Of a stretch of DNA of 56,244 nucleotides, positions 8,956 through 16,216 are shown in pieces (position 1 is the stretch's first letter; each line of letters opens with the position of its first letter). A model generated the notes under the pieces. That model did no database searches. It saw only the letters and a list, made by a program, of their open reading frames with translations, and was not told where the DNA came from. This DNA is from a virus (lineage: Duplodnaviria > Caudoviricetes). The stretch spans positions 1-56,244 of IMG/VR virus record IMGVR_UViG_3300044527_000109; one strand, 5' to 3'. The translations under genes and the position numbers were made by a program.

Positions 8956-9972
8956 ATGTCTAATTTATTTAAAAAGGCAGCATGTTTTACTGATATACAT
9001 TTTGGTCTTAAGAGCAACAGTCTTGAACATAATCAAGACTGTTCGGACTTTGTCGATTGGTTTATACAGACTGCAAAACAAGAGGGTTGCGAGACTTGCA
9101 TTTTCTTAGGTGATTACAATCACCATCGCGCAAGCATTAATATACATACCATGCAATATGGATTAAGAGCCTTAGAGAGGCTCAATGATGCATTTGATCG
9201 TGTGTATTTTATTCCGGGCAATCACGATCTTTATTATCGTGACCGCAGAGATATTCACAGCGTAGAGTGGGCCAGACATTTACCCAACGTCACAATCGTA
9301 AATGATTGGTTTAGTGAAGGTGATGTTGTTATCGCGCCTTGGCTAGTGGGTGATGATTACAAGAAGTTGGCAAAACTCAGAGGTAAGTATTTGTTCAGCC
9401 ATCTTGAGTTACCGCACTTCTATATGAACGCTATGGTCGAGATGCCAGACGTAGGTGAAGTCAACGATACACATGTTCAACAATTTGAAACTGTGTTTAG
9501 CGGCCACTTTCATAAGCGCCAGGCACGTAAAAACATTTGGTATATAGGAAATGCTTTCCCACATAACTATGCTGATGCAGGTGATGATCAGCGTGGTATG
9601 ATGATACTTGAATGGGGCCAAGACCCAATATTCAAAGCATGGCCTAAACAACCTGTTTTCCGTGTGTATAAGTTAAGCGAGATACTTGACAATCCTCAAG
9701 GACTATTATTACCTCGTAGCAATGTCAGAGTACACTTAGATATCGATATCAGTTATGAAGAAGCCAATTTCATCAAAGAAGAATTGATTCCTAAGCATCA
9801 ATTACGTGAAATGGCACTGATACCCATGAAGTTAGAACAACACCAACTTGATCTTGCTCCGGGTGAGATAAAGTTTGAAAGCGTAGATCAGATCATCATG
9901 GATCAGATTAGCAATATCGAAAGTCAGTTCTACGATCAAAAATTATTGCTAGACATTTATAGAAATCTATGA
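8956..9972 (+). CDS. gp47: Recombination endonuclease subunit (gp47, SbcD/Mre11 family)
   Basis: Metallophosphoesterase motifs TDIHFG, LGDYNH, PGNHD and SGHFH. ATG 8956 is preferred over the TTG at 8953. Confidence 0.92.
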   Translation: MSNLFKKAACFTDIHFGLKSNSLEHNQDCSDFVDWFIQTAKQEGCETCIFLGDYNHHRASINIHTMQYGLRALERLNDAFDRVYFIPGNHDLYYRDRRDIHSVEWARHLPNVTIVNDWFSEGDVVIAPWLVGDDYKKLAKLRGKYLFSHLELPHFYMNAMVEMPDVGEVNDTHVQQFETVFSGHFHKRQARKNIWYIGNAFPHNYADAGDDQRGMMILEWGQDPIFKAWPKQPVFRVYKLSEILDNPQGLLLPRSNVRVHLDIDISYEEANFIKEELIPKHQLREMALIPMKLEQHQLDLAPGEIKFESVDQIIMDQISNIESQFYDQKLLLDIYRNL

Positions 9973-10631
9973 AAAAGATACATTATCGTAATATTGGTTT
10001 TCCTAAGACCGGTACAAATTGGTTGTGGGTTCAGTTGATGAAACACCCATTAGTAGATTGTAAGTTAGATGTAATGTTTAAAGAATACAGAGGAAATAGT
10101 ATTGAGTCTTATAAAAAAATATACGAGAAATACGATATCTCTGTAAACATGGATGTTCACGCTTACGATGGGTCATTTCCAAAAGATCATTATATAACAC
10201 CATTAAAGATACATGAACATACTACTCACGTTACTATGATATTGCGTAGTCCATACGAAATCATAAACAGTATGTTCAACATGGATAAGAATAGGAACAT
10301 CAATTTTAAACTGACTCCGGAACAGCATATTGAAAAATGTTATAAAACTTATTCAAATATGAAAAAAATATTCGATGATTGGGAATCTTGCAAGATTCCT
10401 GTCAAATATCTAGCATATGATGATCTTAAATCTGATCCTGAGAATTTTTTCTATGATATATGTGATCACATAGGATTAAAAAGGTACTATAAAGATATCG
10501 GATATAAATTTAAAACAGAGATCAATAGTCCATTAACATTTGACAATCCCATGATTATCAAATATATTAATGAAGGGATCGACTTAATAGAAGAAAAATT
10601 AAATCGTGATTTATCACACTGGAAGCATTAA
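9969..10631 (+). CDS. Sulfotransferase-family protein, copy 1
   Basis: PAPS 5'-PSB loop IGFPKTGTNWL, 3'-PB-like LRSPYE, and YDDLKSDP...ICDHIG; ATGA overlap with the gp47 stop. Confidence 0.75.
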   Translation: MKKIHYRNIGFPKTGTNWLWVQLMKHPLVDCKLDVMFKEYRGNSIESYKKIYEKYDISVNMDVHAYDGSFPKDHYITPLKIHEHTTHVTMILRSPYEIINSMFNMDKNRNINFKLTPEQHIEKCYKTYSNMKKIFDDWESCKIPVKYLAYDDLKSDPENFFYDICDHIGLKRYYKDIGYKFKTEINSPLTFDNPMIIKYINEGIDLIEEKLNRDLSHWKH

Positions 10632-10692
10632 TGATTTTACTGAAAAACATAACACTCAGAAAATATTGCTTAACATCTATAGGAATCTATGA
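10631..10692 (+). pseudogene. Chimeric remnant: gp46 5' end fused to gp47 3' end (recombination scar)
   Basis: 10631 ATGATTTTACTGAAAAACATAACACTCAGA reads MILLKNITLR (gp46 starts MIKLKNITLR). From 10657, in another frame, CAGAAAATATTGCTTAACATCTATAGGAATCTATGA reads QKILLNIYRNL* (gp47 ends QKLLLDIYRNL*). Confidence 0.85.
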
Positions 10693-11357
10693 AAAAGATT
10701 CACTATAGAAATATAGGATTACCGAAAACAGGTACAAATTGGTTATGGTTACAATTGATGCGTCACCATCAGATCGATGGTAAGATGCGACAGCACCTTA
10801 AAGAATTTAGAGGGAATAATCTAGAGGATTACAAGAAGCGTTATGAAAAGTTTGATATCACAGTAAATCTTGACACTCAACTTTTTCATGATGCAAATGA
10901 CTTCACTAGCCCAGAAAGAATCCACGAACACACTACACATATCACAATGAGTTTAAGAAATCCATATGAGATATTAGATTCTATGTACAATATGTTATGC
11001 AACCATGATCCAAAATATTGTGCTGTAAAGAATTCATACACTGATATGGATAGTGATGCAGTCAAGCGTTATGTAGATTACAAAAGAATTTTTGATTATT
11101 GGAAATCTTGCAAGATAGATATCAAGTATATGTTTTACGATGATATGGTAGACAATCCTGAAAAATATATATTTGATATTTGTGAACACATAGGGATAAA
11201 ACCTTTATATCACGCAAAAATGAACAGAGTGTTTGTAACGGACAAGAAAGATCCCTTAGTGTTTGACAATACAAGCACGATCAAGTATATTAATGAGAAC
11301 ATATCTGCGATAGAAGATAAACTAAAACGCGATCTATCACACTGGAAAAAACAATGA
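10689..11357 (+). CDS. Sulfotransferase-family protein, copy 2 (paralogue of copy 1)
   Basis: Same MKKIHYRNIG(F/L)PKTGTNWLW start, IHEHTTH, LRNPYE and RDLSHWK end; ATGA overlap with gp46. Confidence 0.75.
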   Translation: MKKIHYRNIGLPKTGTNWLWLQLMRHHQIDGKMRQHLKEFRGNNLEDYKKRYEKFDITVNLDTQLFHDANDFTSPERIHEHTTHITMSLRNPYEILDSMYNMLCNHDPKYCAVKNSYTDMDSDAVKRYVDYKRIFDYWKSCKIDIKYMFYDDMVDNPEKYIFDICEHIGIKPLYHAKMNRVFVTDKKDPLVFDNTSTIKYINENISAIEDKLKRDLSHWKKQ

Positions 11358-13117
11358 TTAAATTAAAAAACATAACATTAAGAAACTTTTTATCCATTGG
11401 TGCTGTCACACAAGCGGTAGACTTTGATAGCAAAGAACTCACATTGATCTTGGGTGAGAACCTTGATCTTGGTGGTGACGGTGCTAGAAATGGTACTGGT
11501 AAGACCACACTCATTCAAGGCTTGAGTTATGCATTATTCGGTACACCGATCAACCAGATTAGAAAAGATAATCTAGTCAATCGTACAAACGGTAAAGGCA
11601 TGATGGTCACATTAGAGTTTAGTGTGAGCGGAATCGATTATAAGATTGAACGCGGTCGTAAGCCGAACGTACTCAAGTTTTATGTAGATAATAAAGAAGA
11701 AGAAACACAGAATGACGCTCAGGGCGAGAACAAAGAAACACAAGAACACATAGAACGTGCTATCGGTATGACTCCTGATATGTTCAAGCAAACAGTTGCG
11801 TTGAACACATACAGCGAACCATTTTTAGCCATGAAGGCTAACGATCAGCGCAATATCATCGAACAGTTATTGGGTATCACATTATTGAGTGAGAAGGCTG
11901 AGTTGATCAAGACATTGATCAAGAATACCAAAGATAGTATCACTGAAGAAGAATATAAAGTCAAGGCTGTTGAAGAAGCCAACAAGCGCATACAAGAACA
12001 GATCGATAATCTAAAGCGTAGAGCAAAACTATGGGATACTAAGCATGATGAGGATCTAAAGAAACTCAAAGATGACCTCGAAGATTTGCAAAAGTTAGAT
12101 ATCGATAAAGAGTTACAGGGTCATAAGGATTTGGCTGCGTACAACCAAAAGAAAAAAGATATCGCTGACTTAGACAAGACTATTTCCCGAACCCAAGATG
12201 ATTTAGATAAAGAAGAAAAATCATTAAAGAAAGTGGAAAAGGAACTAGCGCAGTTGAAAGAACACAAGTGTCATACTTGTGGTCAAGACTTCCACGATGA
12301 AAAGCACGCCAAAGTAACAAAAGAAAAAGAAAAGAGTAAGAAAGAGAATGAGAGAAACATCAAGGAATTCAATGACTTACTTGAGCAATTAAAATCTGCT
12401 AAAGATGAATTGGGTCCTGTCGGCAAGCAACCGAAACTATATTATGATACCGAGCAAGAAGCATTTCAACATCGTAGCCTAGTGGATGCATTAGTATCAA
12501 AGATAGATGAGAAAGACAAAGAGTTAAACCCATACACCGATCAAATCAGTGAGATGGAAAATCAAGCATTACAAGAAATAAATTTTGATAAGATTAATGA
12601 GTTGTCACGAATTCATGATCATCAAAAGTTCCTGCTTGATCTATTGACAAGCAAAGATAGTTTCGTCCGCAAGAAGATTATCGATCAAAATCTAAGTTAC
12701 CTCAATGCAAGGCTCACACACTACCTTGACAAGATCGGATTACCTCATCAAGTGATTTTCTTAAACGATCTTTCTGTTCAAATCACAGAGTTGGGTCGTG
12801 AATTAGATTTCGATAATCTTTCTCGCGGCGAACGCAATCGACTGATATTAGGTCTATCGTTTGCGTTCCGTGATGTATGGGAAAGCCTATACAGCCCGAT
12901 CAATACATTGTTCATCGATGAATTGATTGATAGTGGTATGGATAGCATAGGTGTTGAGAACAGCATGGCTATCTTGAAAGACATGAGCCGCAATCGTAAT
13001 AAGAGTGTGTGGTTAGTATCGCACCGAGAAGAGTTAGCAGGGCGTGTGCCTAGCGTACTCAAAGTTATTAAAGAGAATGGCTTTACTACATACAGCACTA
13101 GCCGAGACATGGCATGA
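11354..13117 (+). CDS. gp46: Recombination ATPase subunit (gp46, SbcC/Rad50 family)
   Basis: Walker A region NGTGKTT, coiled coil with zinc hook CHTC, signature LSRGE, Walker B LFIDE, and H-loop VSH. Confidence 0.93.
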   Translation: MIKLKNITLRNFLSIGAVTQAVDFDSKELTLILGENLDLGGDGARNGTGKTTLIQGLSYALFGTPINQIRKDNLVNRTNGKGMMVTLEFSVSGIDYKIERGRKPNVLKFYVDNKEEETQNDAQGENKETQEHIERAIGMTPDMFKQTVALNTYSEPFLAMKANDQRNIIEQLLGITLLSEKAELIKTLIKNTKDSITEEEYKVKAVEEANKRIQEQIDNLKRRAKLWDTKHDEDLKKLKDDLEDLQKLDIDKELQGHKDLAAYNQKKKDIADLDKTISRTQDDLDKEEKSLKKVEKELAQLKEHKCHTCGQDFHDEKHAKVTKEKEKSKKENERNIKEFNDLLEQLKSAKDELGPVGKQPKLYYDTEQEAFQHRSLVDALVSKIDEKDKELNPYTDQISEMENQALQEINFDKINELSRIHDHQKFLLDLLTSKDSFVRKKIIDQNLSYLNARLTHYLDKIGLPHQVIFLNDLSVQITELGRELDFDNLSRGERNRLILGLSFAFRDVWESLYSPINTLFIDELIDSGMDSIGVENSMAILKDMSRNRNKSVWLVSHREELAGRVPSVLKVIKENGFTTYSTSRDMA

Positions 13118-14127
13118 GTCTAGCACTTTGGCACTGGCACATTGAAATCAGCAGTAAGTGTACATTACGCTGTCCTCGTTGCGCACGTACCGAAGTGCCT
13201 GATAGTTTGATTAACACCGAACTAGATTTAGAATTCTTTAAAAGAAATTTCACTCCAGAGTTTATTTCTAAAAACGTAGAAAAAATAACTTTCTGCGGTG
13301 ATGACGGTGATCCTATCTATGCGCATGAATTGATAGATGTTATCAAGTATATCAAGTCCGTCAAGAATGTCAGCATCATTATAGTGACCAATGGTAGTTA
13401 TAAGAAACAAGAGTGGTGGCTAGAGTTAGCACAGACATTGAACAATGTTGATCAGATACATTTCAGCCTAGATGGTTGGGATCAAGATAGTAACGAACAA
13501 TATCGTGTGAATAGTGATTGGGATAGCATCATGATCGGTGTGAACACGATTCGCGCTAACAGCGAAGTCTATATGTTATGGGACTGTATTGGATTTAGGT
13601 TCAATGAACAACGAATAGAATATATGAAAAGCCTGGCTAAGAAGTTAGGTTTTGATAGTTTTCAGTTGACTAAAAGCACAAAGTTCGGTAGCAAGTATGA
13701 GCATTATGGTAAAGATGATATACTAGAGCCTACTAGAAAAGACTTGATCAGCACTAGCCATAGATTTGAACGTAGATTATGGTATTTTAATAGTAGACCT
13801 GTTCCTGAACAATGGAAAAACAAAAACAACGAATTGTTAGCACAGGTTAAAACGATAGATAGTATCACGCCTATATGTCATATAGGAAATAAGGGATTAT
13901 TCATCAATAGCAGGGGAGAGTTTTATCCTTGCTGTTGGGTAGCCAACAGATATGGTCACAACGATCATTGGGGCAAGTTAGGAAAGAAATATAACTTGCA
14001 TGAGAACCTATTATCGATTGTGGTCAGTGACAGTTTTTGGAATAAAGATTTTATGAACGGCAGTTATGAGTGTTCTACTAAGTGTGCATCCAAATATGTC
14101 GATAAAAATTATGCCACTGAGTGGTGA
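13114..14127 (+). CDS. Radical SAM protein with a C-terminal SPASM/twitch-like Cys cluster
   Basis: CxxxCxxC (CTLRCPRC), FCGDDGDP, VTNGS, FSLDG; C-terminal PIC...GEFYPCCW...ECSTKC; ATGA overlap with gp46. Confidence 0.85.
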   Translation: MSLALWHWHIEISSKCTLRCPRCARTEVPDSLINTELDLEFFKRNFTPEFISKNVEKITFCGDDGDPIYAHELIDVIKYIKSVKNVSIIIVTNGSYKKQEWWLELAQTLNNVDQIHFSLDGWDQDSNEQYRVNSDWDSIMIGVNTIRANSEVYMLWDCIGFRFNEQRIEYMKSLAKKLGFDSFQLTKSTKFGSKYEHYGKDDILEPTRKDLISTSHRFERRLWYFNSRPVPEQWKNKNNELLAQVKTIDSITPICHIGNKGLFINSRGEFYPCCWVANRYGHNDHWGKLGKKYNLHENLLSIVVSDSFWNKDFMNGSYECSTKCASKYVDKNYATEW

Positions 14128-14143
14128 GAGAATACATATAAAC

Positions 14144-14701
14144 ATGCCTAGTCCACAGAAAGCCAAAGGTAATAGTTATGAACGCGAAGTTGCAAATTAC
14201 CTTTCACAATTATACAATGAGAGTTTTATTCGCGCCCCGGGATCGGGAGCCTACGTAGGTGGGAAAAATCAAGTAAGAACACAATTCTTACATGAAGGGC
14301 AGATACGTAGTTTCAAGGGAGATATAGTCCCGGGAGAAAGTTTCTCTAAACTCAACGCAGAATGTAAAAGTTATGCTGATTTTCCTTTTCATCTAGTGCT
14401 TGCAGGTTCTTGCAAAGTATTAGATGGTTGGATAGATCAAATGATGGACGTTGCCGAATCTGATGACATCAATGTGTTATTCATGAAGTTCAACAGAAAA
14501 GGTAAGTTCGTAGCAGTGCAAACTACTGTGACCTGGGTCACAGACAACTTTTTATATTACACATCATCAAAACACAAAGATTGGCTCATCATAGAGTTCG
14601 AACATTTTTTCAGATTAAACAAAGACCTACTTAAATCATATTGTTCCGGTAAAGCAGAGACCAACTCAAATCTAATCATAGATACATCAATTAGCGTTTA
14701 A
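14144..14701 (+). CDS. Holliday junction resolvase (Hjc-like PD-(D/E)xK nuclease)
   Basis: KAKGNSYEREVA, RAPGSGA, GDIV and AECK motifs. The start is taken as ATG 14144 rather than 14066, which overlaps the upstream gene. Confidence 0.75.
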   Translation: MPSPQKAKGNSYEREVANYLSQLYNESFIRAPGSGAYVGGKNQVRTQFLHEGQIRSFKGDIVPGESFSKLNAECKSYADFPFHLVLAGSCKVLDGWIDQMMDVAESDDINVLFMKFNRKGKFVAVQTTVTWVTDNFLYYTSSKHKDWLIIEFEHFFRLNKDLLKSYCSGKAETNSNLIIDTSISV

Positions 14702-14710
14702 AACAATTTG

Positions 14711-15060
14711 TTTGGTCGAGGTGCTCGACCCTCCTTGAGATTGTACAGATAGTGCTGTGCCGTCAGATTCTGGAGTAAGCGTAGAGTAACATCTACGGAA
14801 TACCGAGAGGGCAATCGACAGGTTTGCGAACCCTCAATGAGTCTATAATCTACTTTGTCTTGCGATTATAGAACATGCGTTGCCGAGATATGTAACAGTA
14901 TCTCACTACAGTCCCATAAACTTTATAGGGCAACCGGTGGCGATATACAGCGATAGGGCTAGTATGTCGGGGAACAGACGACATGGGTGATAGGGCATGG
15001 CAATGTGCTTTTTCCAATGGTGGTGCTGAATAGCACTACCATGGACTCTAAGGCGGCAAT
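14711..15060 (+). ncRNA. Candidate large structured non-coding RNA of unknown class
   Basis: No ORF in the track; lies between convergent stop codons; ~47% GC by hand count; at least eight stems, several with G-U pairs that form only on the + strand; possible long-range closing helix TGCCGTC(14758-14764)/GGCGGCA(15052-15058). Confidence 0.6.
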
Positions 15061-15070
15061 ATGATTCCCT

Positions 15071-15165
15071 TAATAAAAAGATTAAGAAAAATAATAAGTC
15101 TGAGCGAAAGCGAAGACTTAGACAAACGAAGTTTGTCTTCCCAGATAAAGATTAAAAGATTTGTA
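15071..15165. other. A-rich tract with two tandem GAA(A)-loop hairpins; origin-like or terminator element
   Basis: TAAGTCT(15095-15101)/AGACTTA(15114-15120) enclosing GCGAAAGC; AGACAAAC-GAA-GTTTGTCT (15120-15138); AAAGATTAA direct repeats at 15077 and 15147. Confidence 0.45.
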
Positions 15166-15167
15166 TA

Positions 15168-15404
15168 TTAGAAAAATGGAAGTTGTGTCTTCTTTGTGAT
15201 TTCCATATGTTCTTCAACTAGTTTGCTTATGGATTCACGTTCAAAAGTAGACATGTTAAGGACATCCTCATAAGTAGCACCACCTCTCATATACCAAGCC
15301 AAGGTGAGTGCTGCCTTACGTATGCCCTCTGTTTCTTTTTCTAAACTTTCAATATACTTCTGTACGGCTTCAGGGCTAGCAGTAAGAAGTTTCAGCCGAA
15401 AAAA
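15168..15404 (-). CDS. gp51-like ORF, probably translated as a -1 frameshift extension of the upstream chaperone
   Basis: Open frame of 78 codons plus stop: FFRLKLLTASPEAVQKYIESLEKETEGIRKAALTLAWYMRGGATYEDVLNMSTFERESISKLVEEHMEITKKTQLPFF*. The first ATG is only at 15290. It begins at the slippery heptamer T TTT TTC. Not in the ORF track. Confidence 0.7.
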   Translation of the reverse strand, partial: FFRLKLLTASPEAVQKYIESLEKETEGIRKAALTLAWYMRGGATYEDVLNMSTFERESISKLVEEHMEITKKTQLPFF

Positions 15405-16216
15405 TCGCTGGCGTTCAACGTGAAAGGCTGAACGTATTCGTGTGTGCAGTTGTCACACTTGATGTCTAAGGGTTTTAATTCTGTGCTGGCCTTGAGTTGG
15501 GAATTATAATCACGTATAGCAATATAAACACTTCCATCGCAATTATGCAAGAAATCATCAATAAATTGTTTTTCTTCAACTCTAGTAGTGGGCGTATCGA
15601 TATATTCAACAGTTGTTGAAATGATTTTCATTGTAGTTTCCGTAATTACACGTACTGCTTCCTGTGTCTTTTTGTTACGGTCATCATCATTCTCTATCTT
15701 ATCTAAGTCGCCATAAGCCTTTTGTATCTTAAATTGCTCTAACCCGGCCTCATTCATTTCTTTATAAGAAAGAGGTCTAAATTTTATTTTCAGATCATTT
15801 ACTTTTAATTCAGTATCATAGTCGCCGTGCTTTAATTGTGATAGTACGGCTACAAGGTTCAAGCCATAAGTAGATTCATTCTGACATTTAGGGCACTGTG
15901 TGCTGATCTCTAATTGCTGTTGTCCACCTGCGGCTCTGATAGCAATCAATACAGCATCTAAATCGTTTGAATTAATTTGCCATGGATCTTTAATACTTGG
16001 TACGCAACTCTTGATCAAGTCTACAACAGCCGCGCCGTTGAACAATGCGTCAGGAGTTCTTACAGTGATCTCATCGATAGCAGTCATAGGATAAACTGGA
16101 ATCTCACCGTTAGGTGGCATATCTAATACCCCGGGTGAGTATCCTTTGCCCCCGCTAGGTAGTTTAAAATGTACTGCTGGTCTACGGAAATACTGTCTTA
16201 GTGGGTTGTTGTCCAT
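15392..16216 (-). CDS. Baseplate hub / tail assembly chaperone (gp26-like)
   Basis: NPLRQYFRRP, LPSGG, PVYPMTAIDE, DLDAVLIAIRAA, two CxxC pairs and a DFFG C-terminus; SD GAGGA. Confidence 0.75.
   Translation of the reverse strand: MDNNPLRQYFRRPAVHFKLPSGGKGYSPGVLDMPPNGEIPVYPMTAIDEITVRTPDALFNGAAVVDLIKSCVPSIKDPWQINSNDLDAVLIAIRAAGGQQQLEISTQCPKCQNESTYGLNLVAVLSQLKHGDYDTELKVNDLKIKFRPLSYKEMNEAGLEQFKIQKAYGDLDKIENDDDRNKKTQEAVRVITETTMKIISTTVEYIDTPTTRVEEKQFIDDFLHNCDGSVYIAIRDYNSQLKASTELKPLDIKCDNCTHEYVQPFTLNASDFFG

What the first reader, a model, noticed from the sequence alone, without database searches (positions are those of the whole stretch)
14711..15060. Unannotated ~350-nt multi-helix element between convergent genes: candidate new large phage ncRNA
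Seen: this is the only long non-coding stretch in an otherwise tightly packed 56 kb. It sits between two stop codons, so it is not a promoter region, and is ~47% GC by hand count while other intergenic gaps are very AT-rich. It is almost wall-to-wall stems: GGTCGAG/CTCGACC (14714-30), GTACAG/CTGTGC (14743-60), CGTAGA/TCTACG (14780-97), GAGGG/CCCTC (14807-35), TCTATAATC/GATTATAGA (14842-72), GTTGCC/GGCAAC (14879-934) enclosing GAGATA/TATCTC, CGATATAC/GTATGTCG (14941-69), and TCCAATGGTGGTGCT/AGCACTACCATGGA (15013-45). A possible long-range helix joins TGCCGTC(14758-64) to GGCGGCA(15052-58). Several stem mismatches are G-T on the + strand, as expected for a + strand RNA fold. By eye it lacks the hallmarks of tRNA, tmRNA, RNase P, group I/II introns or omega/HEARO RNA. 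Inference: an undescribed structured RNA (scaffold, ribozyme, protein decoy or replication primer) co-transcribed with the gp47-gp46-resolvase operon.
Basis: partly seen in the sequence, partly recalled or inferred. Interest (0 to 1): 0.85.

Follow-up and report, generated by a model that had tools for sequence, protein, structure and literature searches.

The report
New large structured jumbo-phage RNA
The stretch is a gene for a roughly 350-nucleotide, intricately folded non-coding RNA that matches no described RNA family, is kept at the same place in more than a hundred related giant phages from lakes and seas, and has an unknown job.

Summary
Window 14712-15062 (+ strand) folds into about 14 helices plus two pseudoknots. 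The fold is strongly supported by covariation in related IMG/VR phage contigs: on 38 diverse sequences, 93.3% of pair cells are paired against 34-42% when partners are slid, and 62 of 90 pairs show compensatory changes. I collected 117 distinct copies from 185 loci. The element follows a PD-(D/E)XK ("RusA-like") nuclease gene in 110 of 111 loci and precedes a convergent gp51 baseplate gene in 105 of 105. It is single-copy in 5 of 5 large genomes checked (259-525 kb). It is not coding, and wobble pairs point to the + strand. It matches no Rfam 15 family, tRNA or tmRNA, nothing in 50,697 cultured phage records, and neither PA5oct nor Atu_ph07.

Two findings are new. The P7 loop and the P8 internal loop both pair with one 3' segment, locking a four-way junction. 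A nearly invariant hairpin (P10) is flanked by two copies of an 8-nt motif that co-vary as identical sequences, with no complementary partner found.

Function is unknown. My best guess is a trans-acting scaffold or decoy RNA. Transcription is shown only weakly.

The parts
14066..14701 (+). Upstream gene: 211-aa putative PD-(D/E)XK endonuclease (PHROG name: RusA-like Holliday junction resolvase). It always lies directly 5' of the RNA.
   Evidence: PHROG 244, E 7.5e-19. Pfam PF24608 PDDEXK_15, E 1.1e-22. Found upstream on the same strand in 110 of 111 loci with at least 1 kb upstream. 74 of 74 nuclease-found loci with at least 420 nt downstream carry the RNA.
14702..14713 (+). Conserved A/U-rich leader with a 5+5 nt inverted repeat. 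Possible 5' end or processing site of the RNA.
   Evidence: Conserved block in the alignments. No sigma-70-like site and no consistently placed T4-late-like box.
14714..14730 (+). P1 hairpin
   Evidence: All 6 pairs show changes on both sides in 38 sequences. Only 63.7% of cells are paired because MAFFT misaligns this variable stem. Compensated variants are visible by eye.
14731..14775 (+). P2 (CUCC 14731-34 with GGAG 14772-75) enclosing the P3 hairpin (14743-48 / 14755-60, plus 14740:14763) and an invariant internal loop.
   Evidence: P2 is paired in 114-115 of 115 sequences. It has one compensated variant (CUCU/AGAG) in A3 and a doubly compensated version in the distant L107 variant. In P3, 4 of 7 pairs have changes on both sides.
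14780..14797 (+). P4 hairpin
   Evidence: 6 of 6 pairs with changes on both sides; 90.7% of cells paired.
14801..14939 (+). Core domain. Closing helix PJ (14801-05 / 14935-39) around a four-way junction of P5+P5a (14807-35), P6+P7 (14837-76) and P8+P8a (14879-14934). P8 carries a 26-nt conserved internal loop (14905-28).
   Evidence: A2, 40 sequences: 96.4% paired against 31-39% when slid; 18 of 29 pairs with changes on both sides. PJ covaries at 14801:14939. Covariance model R1 of this domain scores 64-163 bits in 94 of the 98 loci L111-L208, which had been fetched by the P10 pattern.
14855..14860 (+). 5' strand of pseudoknot PK2, lying in the P7 hairpin loop.
   Evidence: Found by corrected mutual information on 117 sequences: 14855:14981 is UA 69 / CG 43, and 14857:14979 is GC 63 / AU 47. 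99.6% of cells paired, and 5 of 6 pairs with changes on both sides.
14912..14915 (+). 5' strand of pseudoknot PK1, lying in the P8 internal loop.
   Evidence: 14912:14973 is UA 74 / CG 18 / AU 11 / GC 6. 90% of cells paired, and 3 of 4 pairs with changes on both sides.
14941..14969 (+). P9 hairpin with a conserved loop and a short inner stem.
   Evidence: 8 of 10 pairs with changes on both sides; 96.4% paired. 106 G.U cells against 3 A.C cells.
14970..14981 (+). Single 3' segment that supplies the partner strands of both PK1 (14970-73) and PK2 (14976-81).
14987..15015 (+). Small hairpin Px (14987-89 / 14996-98) and repeat R1 (about 14995-15004). A further weak stem (GGN with N'CC) is suggested only by single-sequence folds.
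   Evidence: In Px, 2 of 3 pairs have changes on both sides. R1 and the weak stem.
15018..15044 (+). P10: a 10-bp hairpin (15018-27 / 15032-41) followed by a palindromic hexamer. It is the most conserved part of the RNA.
   Evidence: 7 of 9 pairs never vary. Positions 15033-15044 are at least 97% conserved in 117 sequences. When the loop is longer, the stem is extended by complementary bases. One copy per genome in 5 of 5 large genomes.
15053..15060 (+). Repeat R2, a second copy of the R1 motif, 49-67 nt downstream of R1.
   Evidence: 14995 and 15053 are identical in 105 of 117 sequences (GG 72, UU 17, CC 14, AA 2), against 53.6 expected from shuffles with a maximum of 68. Spacing.
15096..15138 (.). 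Two adjacent hairpins between the convergent transcription units. They are likely a bidirectional terminator and the outer limit of the RNA's 3' end.
   Evidence: Predicted in both strands' folds, with hairpins at the same place in relatives. The simple terminator scan does not call them.
15168..15302 (-). Convergent small ORF (44 aa from a TTG start; its frame is open up to 15392).
   Evidence: tblastn finds it on the - strand in 112 of 117 distinct loci. Translation. No PHROG or Pfam family.
15392..16216 (-). Convergent gp51-like baseplate hub gene.
   Evidence: PHROG 150. Pfam T4_baseplate, E 2.3e-16. Present downstream in 105 of 105 loci with at least 1.3 kb downstream.

Best explanation
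Window 14712-15062 (+ strand), possibly running on to the hairpins at 15096-15138, is a single-copy gene for a new family of large (334-390 nt) structured non-coding RNA. The family belongs to a clade of uncultivated aquatic jumbo myoviruses that are distant relatives of PA5oct, Atu_ph07 and Rak2-like phages.

Shown:
- The RNA has a 5' arm (P1-P4) and a four-way-junction core.
- Two pseudoknots tie the P7 loop and the P8 internal loop to one 3' segment, locking that core.
- The 3' arm holds a nearly invariant hairpin (P10) flanked by two copies of an 8-nt motif that stay identical to each other while differing between phages.

Inferred:
- It is transcribed as the tail of the gp47-gp46-nuclease unit and ended by the bidirectional hairpins.
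- It works in trans as a folded RNA. The rigid core serves as a platform, and P10 plus the two identical motifs are the sequence-specific sites that hold a phage or host factor in two copies. That makes it a ribonucleoprotein scaffold or decoy.

My odds: about 0.95 that it is a real, selected, + strand structured RNA. About 0.35-0.4 that the scaffold or decoy reading is the right function.
For: Conservation. The element is 70-90% identical at DNA level in relatives whose neighbouring nuclease is only 65-100% identical in protein. I collected 117 distinct copies from 185 loci.

Structure. 90 pairs in 16 helices are 93.3% paired, against a shuffle mean of 79.7% (0 of 500 shuffles reach the observed value) and 33.7-42.5% when slid. 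62 pairs have changes on both sides, against 21-30 when slid. Both pseudoknots came from a structure-blind mutual-information scan.

Strand. There are 873 G.U cells against 275 A.C cells overall; P9 alone gives 106 against 3 and P7 gives 53 against 3. The z-score is -5.35 on the + strand and -3.75 on the - strand.

Not coding. The window's five small ORFs are intact in only 3-11 of 117 copies. Only 99 of 907 deletion runs are multiples of three, and there is no 3-periodicity.

Synteny and copy number.

Sequence-level selection in unpaired parts. 81 of 351 columns are at least 97% conserved, including junctions, the P8 internal loop and P10.

Identical co-variation of R1 and R2, with no complementary column inside the RNA. 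The mutual information of 14995 with 15053 is 1.14. The next-best partner column scores 0.44 for 14995 and 0.63 for 15053.

RNA libraries. Pieces nearly identical to the window, or closely related, occur in contigs of four RNA runs from three studies: 14662-14941, 14862-15012, 14732-14925 and 14999-15480.
Against: - No direct proof of a transcript. The RNA-library evidence is assembled contigs only, which cannot show strand, ends or level, and may stem from DNA carried into the library.
- No promoter was found.
- No binding partner is identified, so the scaffold or decoy function is inference from anatomy alone.
- The nearest cultured relatives have the nuclease and gp51 genes but no detectable copy, so no experimental system exists.
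- The near-invariance of P10 could reflect a DNA-level role.
- Identical co-variation is not what protein-binding sites usually show.
Confidence: 0.5

Rival explanations
1. It is a ribozyme. The pseudoknot-locked core with invariant unpaired nucleotides is an active site, and the two identical motifs are two equivalent substrate or processing sites. Cutting at both would, for example, release the P10 hairpin.
For: The size, the two pseudoknots and the many invariant junction and loop nucleotides are typical of large ribozymes. Two identical short motifs flank a conserved module.
Against: No Rfam ribozyme or intron model matches, even at E up to 10. No internal guide complementary to the motifs exists in the RNA. 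The only joint in the laid RNA contigs (14891 to 15234, with 381 other letters between the two sides, 25 letters on the shorter side, min_likeness 85) looks like a relative's contig and does not link R1 and R2. Contigs could also miss a joint at the motifs.
Confidence: 0.18
2. It is a cis-acting 3' untranslated element of the nuclease operon. It would act as a stabiliser against 3' exonucleases and as an insulator between convergent transcription units.
For: It always sits at the 3' end of the + strand unit, facing convergent genes, just before hairpins that look like a bidirectional terminator.
Against: A 350-nt fold with two pseudoknots and about 80 near-invariant positions is far more than such a role needs. 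The terminator hairpins already provide a 3' block.
Confidence: 0.1
3. It is the specificity subunit of the adjacent PD-(D/E)XK nuclease. The long fold is the protein-binding scaffold and the two identical 8-nt motifs recognise a nucleic-acid target.
For: Adjacency is strict, in the order nuclease gene then RNA: 110 of 111 and 74 of 74 loci. The motifs vary between phages, stay identical within a phage, and have no partner inside the RNA.
Against: In two whole genomes, one fragment estimated 73% complete and the window, complements of the motif occur at chance frequency. At homologous places they do not change with the motif. Cultured relatives keep the nuclease without the RNA. Eight nucleotides is short for a guide.
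Confidence: 0.06
4. The selected object is DNA, not RNA. A folded single-strand or cruciform signal would serve as, for example, a replication origin, a packaging site or a recombination site, with P10 as a palindrome and R1/R2 as direct repeats.
For: P10 is a perfect palindrome flanked by direct repeats and sits next to recombination genes (gp46/47, nuclease). G.T pairs are tolerated in DNA too.
Against: Two 4-6 bp long-range pseudoknots and a four-way junction kept by covariation are not expected of transient single-stranded DNA. Wobble use is strongly one-stranded. P10 stems lengthen when the loop lengthens, which does not fit spacing-dependent binding by a dimer on duplex DNA.
Confidence: 0.04
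5. It is a template RNA for repeat-adding reverse transcription. R1 and R2 would be the identical ends that let the product re-align, as in telomerase or DRT2.
For: Identical direct repeats flanking a defined unit are what template jumping needs, as I recall it from the DRT2 and telomerase literature. The only related passage I saw is the description of the DRT2 ncRNA being reverse transcribed into a concatemeric cDNA. The identity of R1 and R2 itself is measured.
Against: No RVT_1 reverse transcriptase was found in 0 of 5 large genomes, three of them 100% complete by CheckV's estimate, while the control search rang in 3 of 14 known genomes. The repeat spacing shows no preference for multiples of three: 23 of 117.
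Confidence: 0.02

Closest known systems
GOLLD, ROOL and OLE 'ornate large' RNAs
   Same: They are large, elaborately folded bacterial or phage-borne RNAs. The abstract of PMC12286853 (search listing) reports that they form homo-oligomeric complexes, and the acronym there shows GOLLD to be lake-derived. That their function is unknown and that they have multiple pseudoknots is my recollection.
   Different: Rfam 15, which by my recollection holds these families, gives no match even at E up to 10. This RNA is about 350 nt, against roughly 580-800 nt as I recall. It sits in a fixed recombination-to-baseplate junction rather than near tRNA genes (also recalled). I have no evidence on oligomers.
Guide-RNA scaffolds encoded beside nucleases or recombinases (IscB/TnpB omega/reRNA, IS110 bridge RNA)
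   Same: A long structured RNA is encoded right next to a nuclease gene, with short segments that differ between elements.
   Different: The neighbour is a PD-(D/E)XK protein, not a RuvC/HNH or DEDD protein. The locus is syntenic, not mobile. The variable segments are only about 8 nt, duplicated, and have no detectable target. HEARO is in Rfam by recollection and gives no match.
phi29 pRNA
   Same: A phage-encoded structured RNA that works as a part of a protein machine (recalled).
   Different: No sequence or model match. As I recall, pRNA is about 120-174 nt and belongs to small podoviruses. Its intermolecular loops are complementary, whereas R1 and R2 are identical.
Multi-site protein-sponge RNAs (CsrB/RsmZ type)
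   Same: A short motif is repeated and presented in or next to hairpin loops; my reading of R1 and R2 is of this kind.
   Different: There are only two copies. The motif is not GGA-type. The rest of the RNA is a rigid pseudoknotted fold that sponges lack. No Rfam match.
Candidate structured RNAs from IMG/VR (Fremin and co-workers 2023, PMC10690425)
   Same: They were mined from the same collection by covariation. The passages I read mention six candidates 'upstream of RusA'.
   Different: Those candidates are 29-151 nt long, with a mean of 67. This element lies downstream of the nuclease gene and is about 350 nt. Single hairpins of it may be listed in that paper's supplementary tables, which I could not open.

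Membership tests
Any Rfam 15 family (4227 models) | cmscan score at or above the family's gathering score | tested here: not met
   0 matches over the whole window. With E up to 10, there were 5 matches, the best at E 5.2, all at 15065-15275 and none within 14702-15060.
tRNA / tmRNA | Cloverleaf or tRNA-like domain detected by ARAGORN | tested here: not met
   0 genes in the window.
RNase P RNA | Match to the Rfam RNase P models; 5' and 3' ends paired (P1) and the P4 long-range helix | tested here: not met
No model match. I recall that Rfam holds RNase P models. The comparative structure has no 5'-3' closing helix.
Group I / group II introns | Match to the intron models; interruption of a host gene with exon-pairing guide sequences | tested here: not met
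   No model match. The element lies after the stop codon of the upstream gene and before convergent genes. No internal sequence is complementary to the flanking motifs.
GOLLD / ROOL / HEARO / OLE large RNAs | Match to their Rfam models | tested here: not met
   No match at E up to 10. That these models are in Rfam is recalled.
Retron / DRT / telomerase-type template RNAs | A reverse transcriptase encoded with the RNA | tested here: not met
   PF00078 was found in 0 of 5 large genomes that carry the RNA, while the control search rang in 3 of 14 known genomes. No such gene lies next to the RNA.
Guide RNA of a nuclease (omega/reRNA-like) | A variable segment complementary to a target that changes with it | tested here: not met
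   Complements of the motif occur at chance frequency: 5 against 3.9 expected, 21 against 22.4, 9 against 18.5 and 2 against 3.4. Homologous sites do not co-vary. This tested exact 7-8-mers in three fetched genome records and the window; host genomes were not tested.
Guide RNA of a nuclease (omega/reRNA-like) | Physical binding of the RNA to the adjacent nuclease | not testable with these tools
   Only gene adjacency is known.
Protein-coding gene or pseudogene | A conserved reading frame, indels in threes and third-position variation | tested here: not met
   The window's ORFs are intact in 3-11 of 117 copies. 99 of 907 deletion runs are multiples of 3. Column entropy by phase is 0.80, 0.85 and 0.77.
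IMG/VR candidate structured RNAs (PMC10690425) | Overlap with one of the 8495 published models | not testable with these tools
The text gives lengths of 29-151 nt.

The most novel reading that the evidence does not exclude
The RNA is the programmable half of an RNA-directed nucleic-acid enzyme in jumbo phages. The pseudoknotted fold docks onto the always-adjacent PD-(D/E)XK nuclease, and the two motifs, kept identical within each phage yet different between phages, read a target twice, for example the two arms of a branched or repeated DNA or a host RNA. That would add a PD-(D/E)XK enzyme to the RNA-guided nucleases and would explain why identity, rather than complementarity, is under selection.
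Probability: 0.06. Interest if true: 0.95.

Novelty: categorically new. Interest (0 to 1): 0.8.

Why it matters
New large RNA classes with complex tertiary folds are rare. Past ones turned out to be ribozymes, riboswitches, guide scaffolds or self-assembling RNA cages.

This one is backed by unusually deep natural variation: 117 distinct sequences, 62 covarying pairs and two pseudoknots. That is enough to build a reliable model and go straight to structure determination and biochemistry.

It is fixed in the genomes of a widespread group of giant aquatic phages, between their recombination genes and baseplate genes. It therefore marks an unknown RNA-dependent step in jumbo-phage biology.

The pair of short motifs that evolve in lock-step as identical copies is a covariation signature that the usual tools do not look for. 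It points to a partner still to be found.

Tried and rejected
1. Cultured relatives. Sensitive blastn of 14650-15250 against 50,697 phage records gave no match. Model R1 run over the whole PA5oct and Atu_ph07 genomes gave only E 0.63 and 0.092. The syntenic stretches there hold tiny annotated ORFs instead. The four ncRNAs reported for PA5oct lie elsewhere in that genome (passages of PMC7318152).

2. Cellular genomes. The P10 pattern hit one contig among the species genomes. On reading it, the hit is a chance match with none of the fold.

3. More distant phages. Loci whose gp51 is 55% identical or less (L091-L096, L098-L106) have no domain-B match and no blastn match. L107/L108 keep only the 5' module (P1-P3), joined to a different 3' sequence. 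That 3' sequence is itself conserved in L095, L096 and L098-L103, has folding z = -0.06, and has no Rfam match.

4. The identical repeats R1 and R2.
- Coding concatemer: spacing is 49-67 nt, a multiple of three in 23 of 117.
- Complement within 3 kb either side: none at a consistent place.
- Complementary column in the alignment: none.
- Pairing with the 5' strand of P8: rejected, because P8 changes in one clade without R1 or R2 changing.
- Complement elsewhere in three fetched genome records and the window: chance level, with no covariation.
- Local hairpins around R1 and R2: single-sequence folds suggest weak stems, but I could not show that these explain the identity.
- The heptamer CGGCAAT is over-represented in the window (16 against 4.6 expected), but 14 of the 16 are same-sense copies, mostly inside large + strand ORFs at 28-43 kb. 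I take this as codon usage.

5. Promoter. There is no sigma-70-like site upstream on the + strand. A match to TATAAATA with at most one mismatch occurs in 34 of 116 upstream regions, at scattered positions; that consensus is recalled from T4.

6. Sequencing runs. The DNA is held by 14 lake-water DNA runs that may be its source. A lack of cover over the flanking genes in the RNA contigs means nothing by itself. The only joint (14891 to 15234, with 381 other letters between, in one X15 contig) does not link R1 and R2.

7. Tools and slips. mafft-qinsi failed in the script box because MXSCARNA is missing, so the alignments are plain MAFFT and the variable stems P1, P3 and P8a are under-counted. 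In one search I gave P2 and P10 in a register off by one; this was corrected. One search failed because I had overwritten a query file; I repeated it.

8. Literature searches found no description of this RNA. I did not see the supplements of PMC10690425.
Full report
**What the window is.** The window is an IMG/VR virus record of 56,244 bases that CheckV rates 16% complete, so it is a fragment of a genome of several hundred kb.
- The genes around the finding are T4-like: a gp47-like phosphoesterase, a gp46/SbcC-like ATPase (11354-13117) and a radical-SAM protein.
- Next comes a 211-aa protein (14066-14701) that PHROGs calls RusA-like resolvase and Pfam calls a putative phage PD-(D/E)XK endonuclease.
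- On the other strand lie a gp51-like baseplate hub gene (15392-16216) and a small ORF (15168-15302).
- The closest cultured phages by gp46 protein are PA5oct (48.6% identity), Phosso, Atu_ph07 and Rak2-like jumbo phages.
- The DNA occurs in lake-water metagenome runs.

- The + strand of 14702-15175 folds at -146.4 kcal/mol, 5.35 standard deviations below dinucleotide shuffles. The - strand reaches only z = -3.75.
- GC rises to 0.445-0.465 inside the element, from 0.35-0.385 beside it.
- No tRNA or tmRNA is found.
- No Rfam 15 family reaches its threshold anywhere in the window.
- With permissive filters, nothing at E up to 10 falls inside 14702-15060.

**Relatives.**
- Searching IMG/VR with the nuclease protein gave 196 confirmed stretches, of which 80 loci were kept. 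Searching with gp51 gave 27 loci.
- A blastn of the element against these loci hit 90 of them at 70-99.6% identity, always right after the nuclease gene.
- Of the nuclease-found loci with at least 420 nt downstream, 74 of 74 carry the element.
- In all I extracted 185 loci with enough flank, giving 117 distinct sequences 334-390 nt long, with median identity to the window of 0.71.
- Gene order is fixed. The nuclease lies upstream in 110 of 111 loci, gp51 lies downstream and convergent in 105 of 105, and the small convergent ORF is found in 112 of 117. The radical-SAM gene is present in only 32.
- Five large genomes of 259-525 kb, three of them rated complete, each hold exactly one copy.

**Structure.**
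- RNAalifold on 16 sequences already gave 71 pairs, 34 of them compensated.
- For the core domain (40 sequences), the structure I named is 96.4% paired, against 31-39% when the partners are slid. 18 of 29 pairs changed on both sides.
- A covariance model of that domain (R1) found it at 64-163 bits in 94 of the 98 loci L111-L208, which had been fetched by the P10 pattern alone. It also found it in 21 of the 22 further pattern-fetched loci L209-L230.
- A structure-blind mutual-information scan over 117 sequences recovered the helices and added two long-range ones. PK1 joins four bases of the P8 internal loop (14912-15) to 14970-73. PK2 joins six bases of the P7 hairpin loop (14855-60) to 14976-81.
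- On a fresh MAFFT alignment of 38 diverse full-length copies, the whole structure has 90 pairs in 16 helices, pseudoknots included. It is 93.3% paired, against a shuffle mean of 79.7% (0 of 500 reach it) and 33.7-42.5% when slid. 62 pairs changed on both sides, against 21-30 when slid. PK2 is 99.6% paired with 5 of 6 pairs compensated, and PK1 is 90% paired with 3 of 4.
- The low figures for P1 (63.7%), P3 (83.4%) and P8a (82.2%) come from misalignment of these length-variable stems. No structure-aware aligner was available.
- P2 (CUCC/GGAG) is nearly invariant. It is compensated once within the family and doubly in a distant variant.
- P10 hardly varies, so it is supported only by its stem growing when the loop grows.

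**Strand and coding.**
- Wobble pairs are G.U on the + strand 873 times, against 275 A.C cells. In the cleanly aligned helices the contrast is 106 to 3 (P9) and 53 to 3 (P7).
- None of the window's small ORFs is kept (3-11 of 117 intact).
- Deletions are multiples of three in only 99 of 907 runs, and variability shows no codon phase.
- The selected object is therefore a + strand nucleic-acid fold, and the pseudoknots make RNA by far the likelier molecule.

**The odd feature.**
- P10 is flanked by two copies of an 8-nt motif: R1 at about 14995-15004, which has two extra bases, and R2 at 15053-15060.
- The motif differs between phages but is the same in both places.
- The first base is identical in 105 of 117 sequences (GG 72, UU 17, CC 14, AA 2), where shuffling gives 53.6 with a maximum of 68. 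Four further positions also exceed every shuffle.
- This is identity, not complementarity. No column of the RNA is complementary to it, and no complement lies within 3 kb.
- In two fetched whole genomes, one fragment estimated 73% complete and the window, complements occur at chance frequency and do not change with the motif.
- The spacing of 49-67 nt has no codon periodicity, and none of five large genomes encodes a reverse transcriptase. A template-jumping mechanism is therefore unlikely.
- Single-sequence folds put R1 in or near the loop of a weak hairpin and R2 next to another. I could not show that this explains the identity, and I leave it as unexplained.
- The simplest readings are two equivalent sites for one partner that co-evolves with them, or two segments that compete for a partner I could not align.

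**Expression.**
- Contigs from four RNA-library runs in three studies carry pieces of this element or of close relatives: 14662-14812 and 14791-14941 with one difference each, then 14862-15012, 14732-14925 and 14999-15480.
- Contigs cannot show strand, ends or abundance, and DNA may be present in such libraries, so this is only a weak hint.
- I found no promoter. By position the RNA is most simply the 3' part of the nuclease transcription unit, ending at the two hairpins at 15096-15138 that separate the convergent units.

**What it most likely is and does.**
- Shown: a new, single-copy, syntenic, + strand structured element with a pseudoknot-locked four-way junction, and about 80 near-invariant positions, many of them unpaired.
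- Inferred: it is a stable trans-acting RNA whose rigid core displays P10 and the two identical motifs to a partner, making it a scaffold or decoy. I give this about 0.35-0.4.
- The rivals are set out with their tests in the rival explanations: a ribozyme (0.18), a cis-acting 3' element (0.1), the specificity subunit of the adjacent nuclease (0.06), a DNA-level signal (0.04) and a reverse-transcription template (0.02).

**Comparison with what is known.**
- The element is no member of any Rfam family, tRNA, tmRNA, RNase P, intron, GOLLD/ROOL/HEARO or retron-type RNA by the tests available.
- Cultured relatives lack it.
- More distant uncultured relatives, with gp51 at most 55% identical, lack the core. 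One lineage joins the same 5' module (P1-P3) to a different 3' sequence.
- The literature searches found no description of it.
- A 2023 survey of IMG/VR reports candidates of 29-151 nt, some near RusA genes (passages). Parts of this RNA may be in its supplementary tables, which I could not open.
- I therefore rate it as a new class, with function open.

Noticed in passing
window 15168-15392 (- strand): The small convergent ORF is conserved: tblastn finds it in 112 of 117 distinct loci. Its frame is open for 74 codons right up to the gp51 stop codon, offset by one base, with no ATG, GTG or TTG before the TTG at 15302. It may be a separate small gene with an unusual start, or a frameshifted or extended tail of gp51.
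   Followed up: partly
L107:5090-5460 (- strand); also L095, L096, L098-L103: A second conserved intergenic element in more distant jumbo phages. It shares only the 5' module (P1-P3, with a doubly compensated P2) with this RNA and continues with an unrelated sequence of about 280 nt that is 73-81% conserved. It has no Rfam match and a folding z-score of -0.06.
   Followed up: partly
window, 16 sites (e.g. 28401, 29838, 30485 ... 55558): The heptamer CGGCAAT, which is the core of R2, occurs 16 times against 4.6 expected, 14 of them on the + strand and mostly inside the large ORFs at 28-43 kb. I take this as codon or repeat-domain usage rather than a link to the RNA.
   Followed up: partly
window 13114-14127: The radical-SAM/SPASM gene between gp46 and the nuclease is present in only 32 of 117 related loci, so it is an accessory insertion in this module. 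Its ORF overlaps the nuclease ORF by 62 bases, so the nuclease may start later than 14066.
   Followed up: no
window 9969-11357: Two adjacent sulfotransferase-domain ORFs (220 and 222 aa) sit between the gp47-like and gp46-like genes. That is an unusual insertion in a recombination-nuclease pair.
   Followed up: no
window 14702-14712: Directly after the nuclease stop codon lies a 5+5 nt inverted repeat with a one-base spacer, conserved in many relatives. It could be a protein-binding site or the RNA's 5' end.
   Followed up: no
L109 (PA5oct NC_071039.1 75704-77632): In PA5oct, the stretch between the RusA-like gene and the gp51-like gene is about 2.2 kb and is annotated only with five tiny hypothetical ORFs (117-453 nt). 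There is no homologue of this RNA there, but it is a candidate place for an unrelated non-coding element.
   Followed up: no
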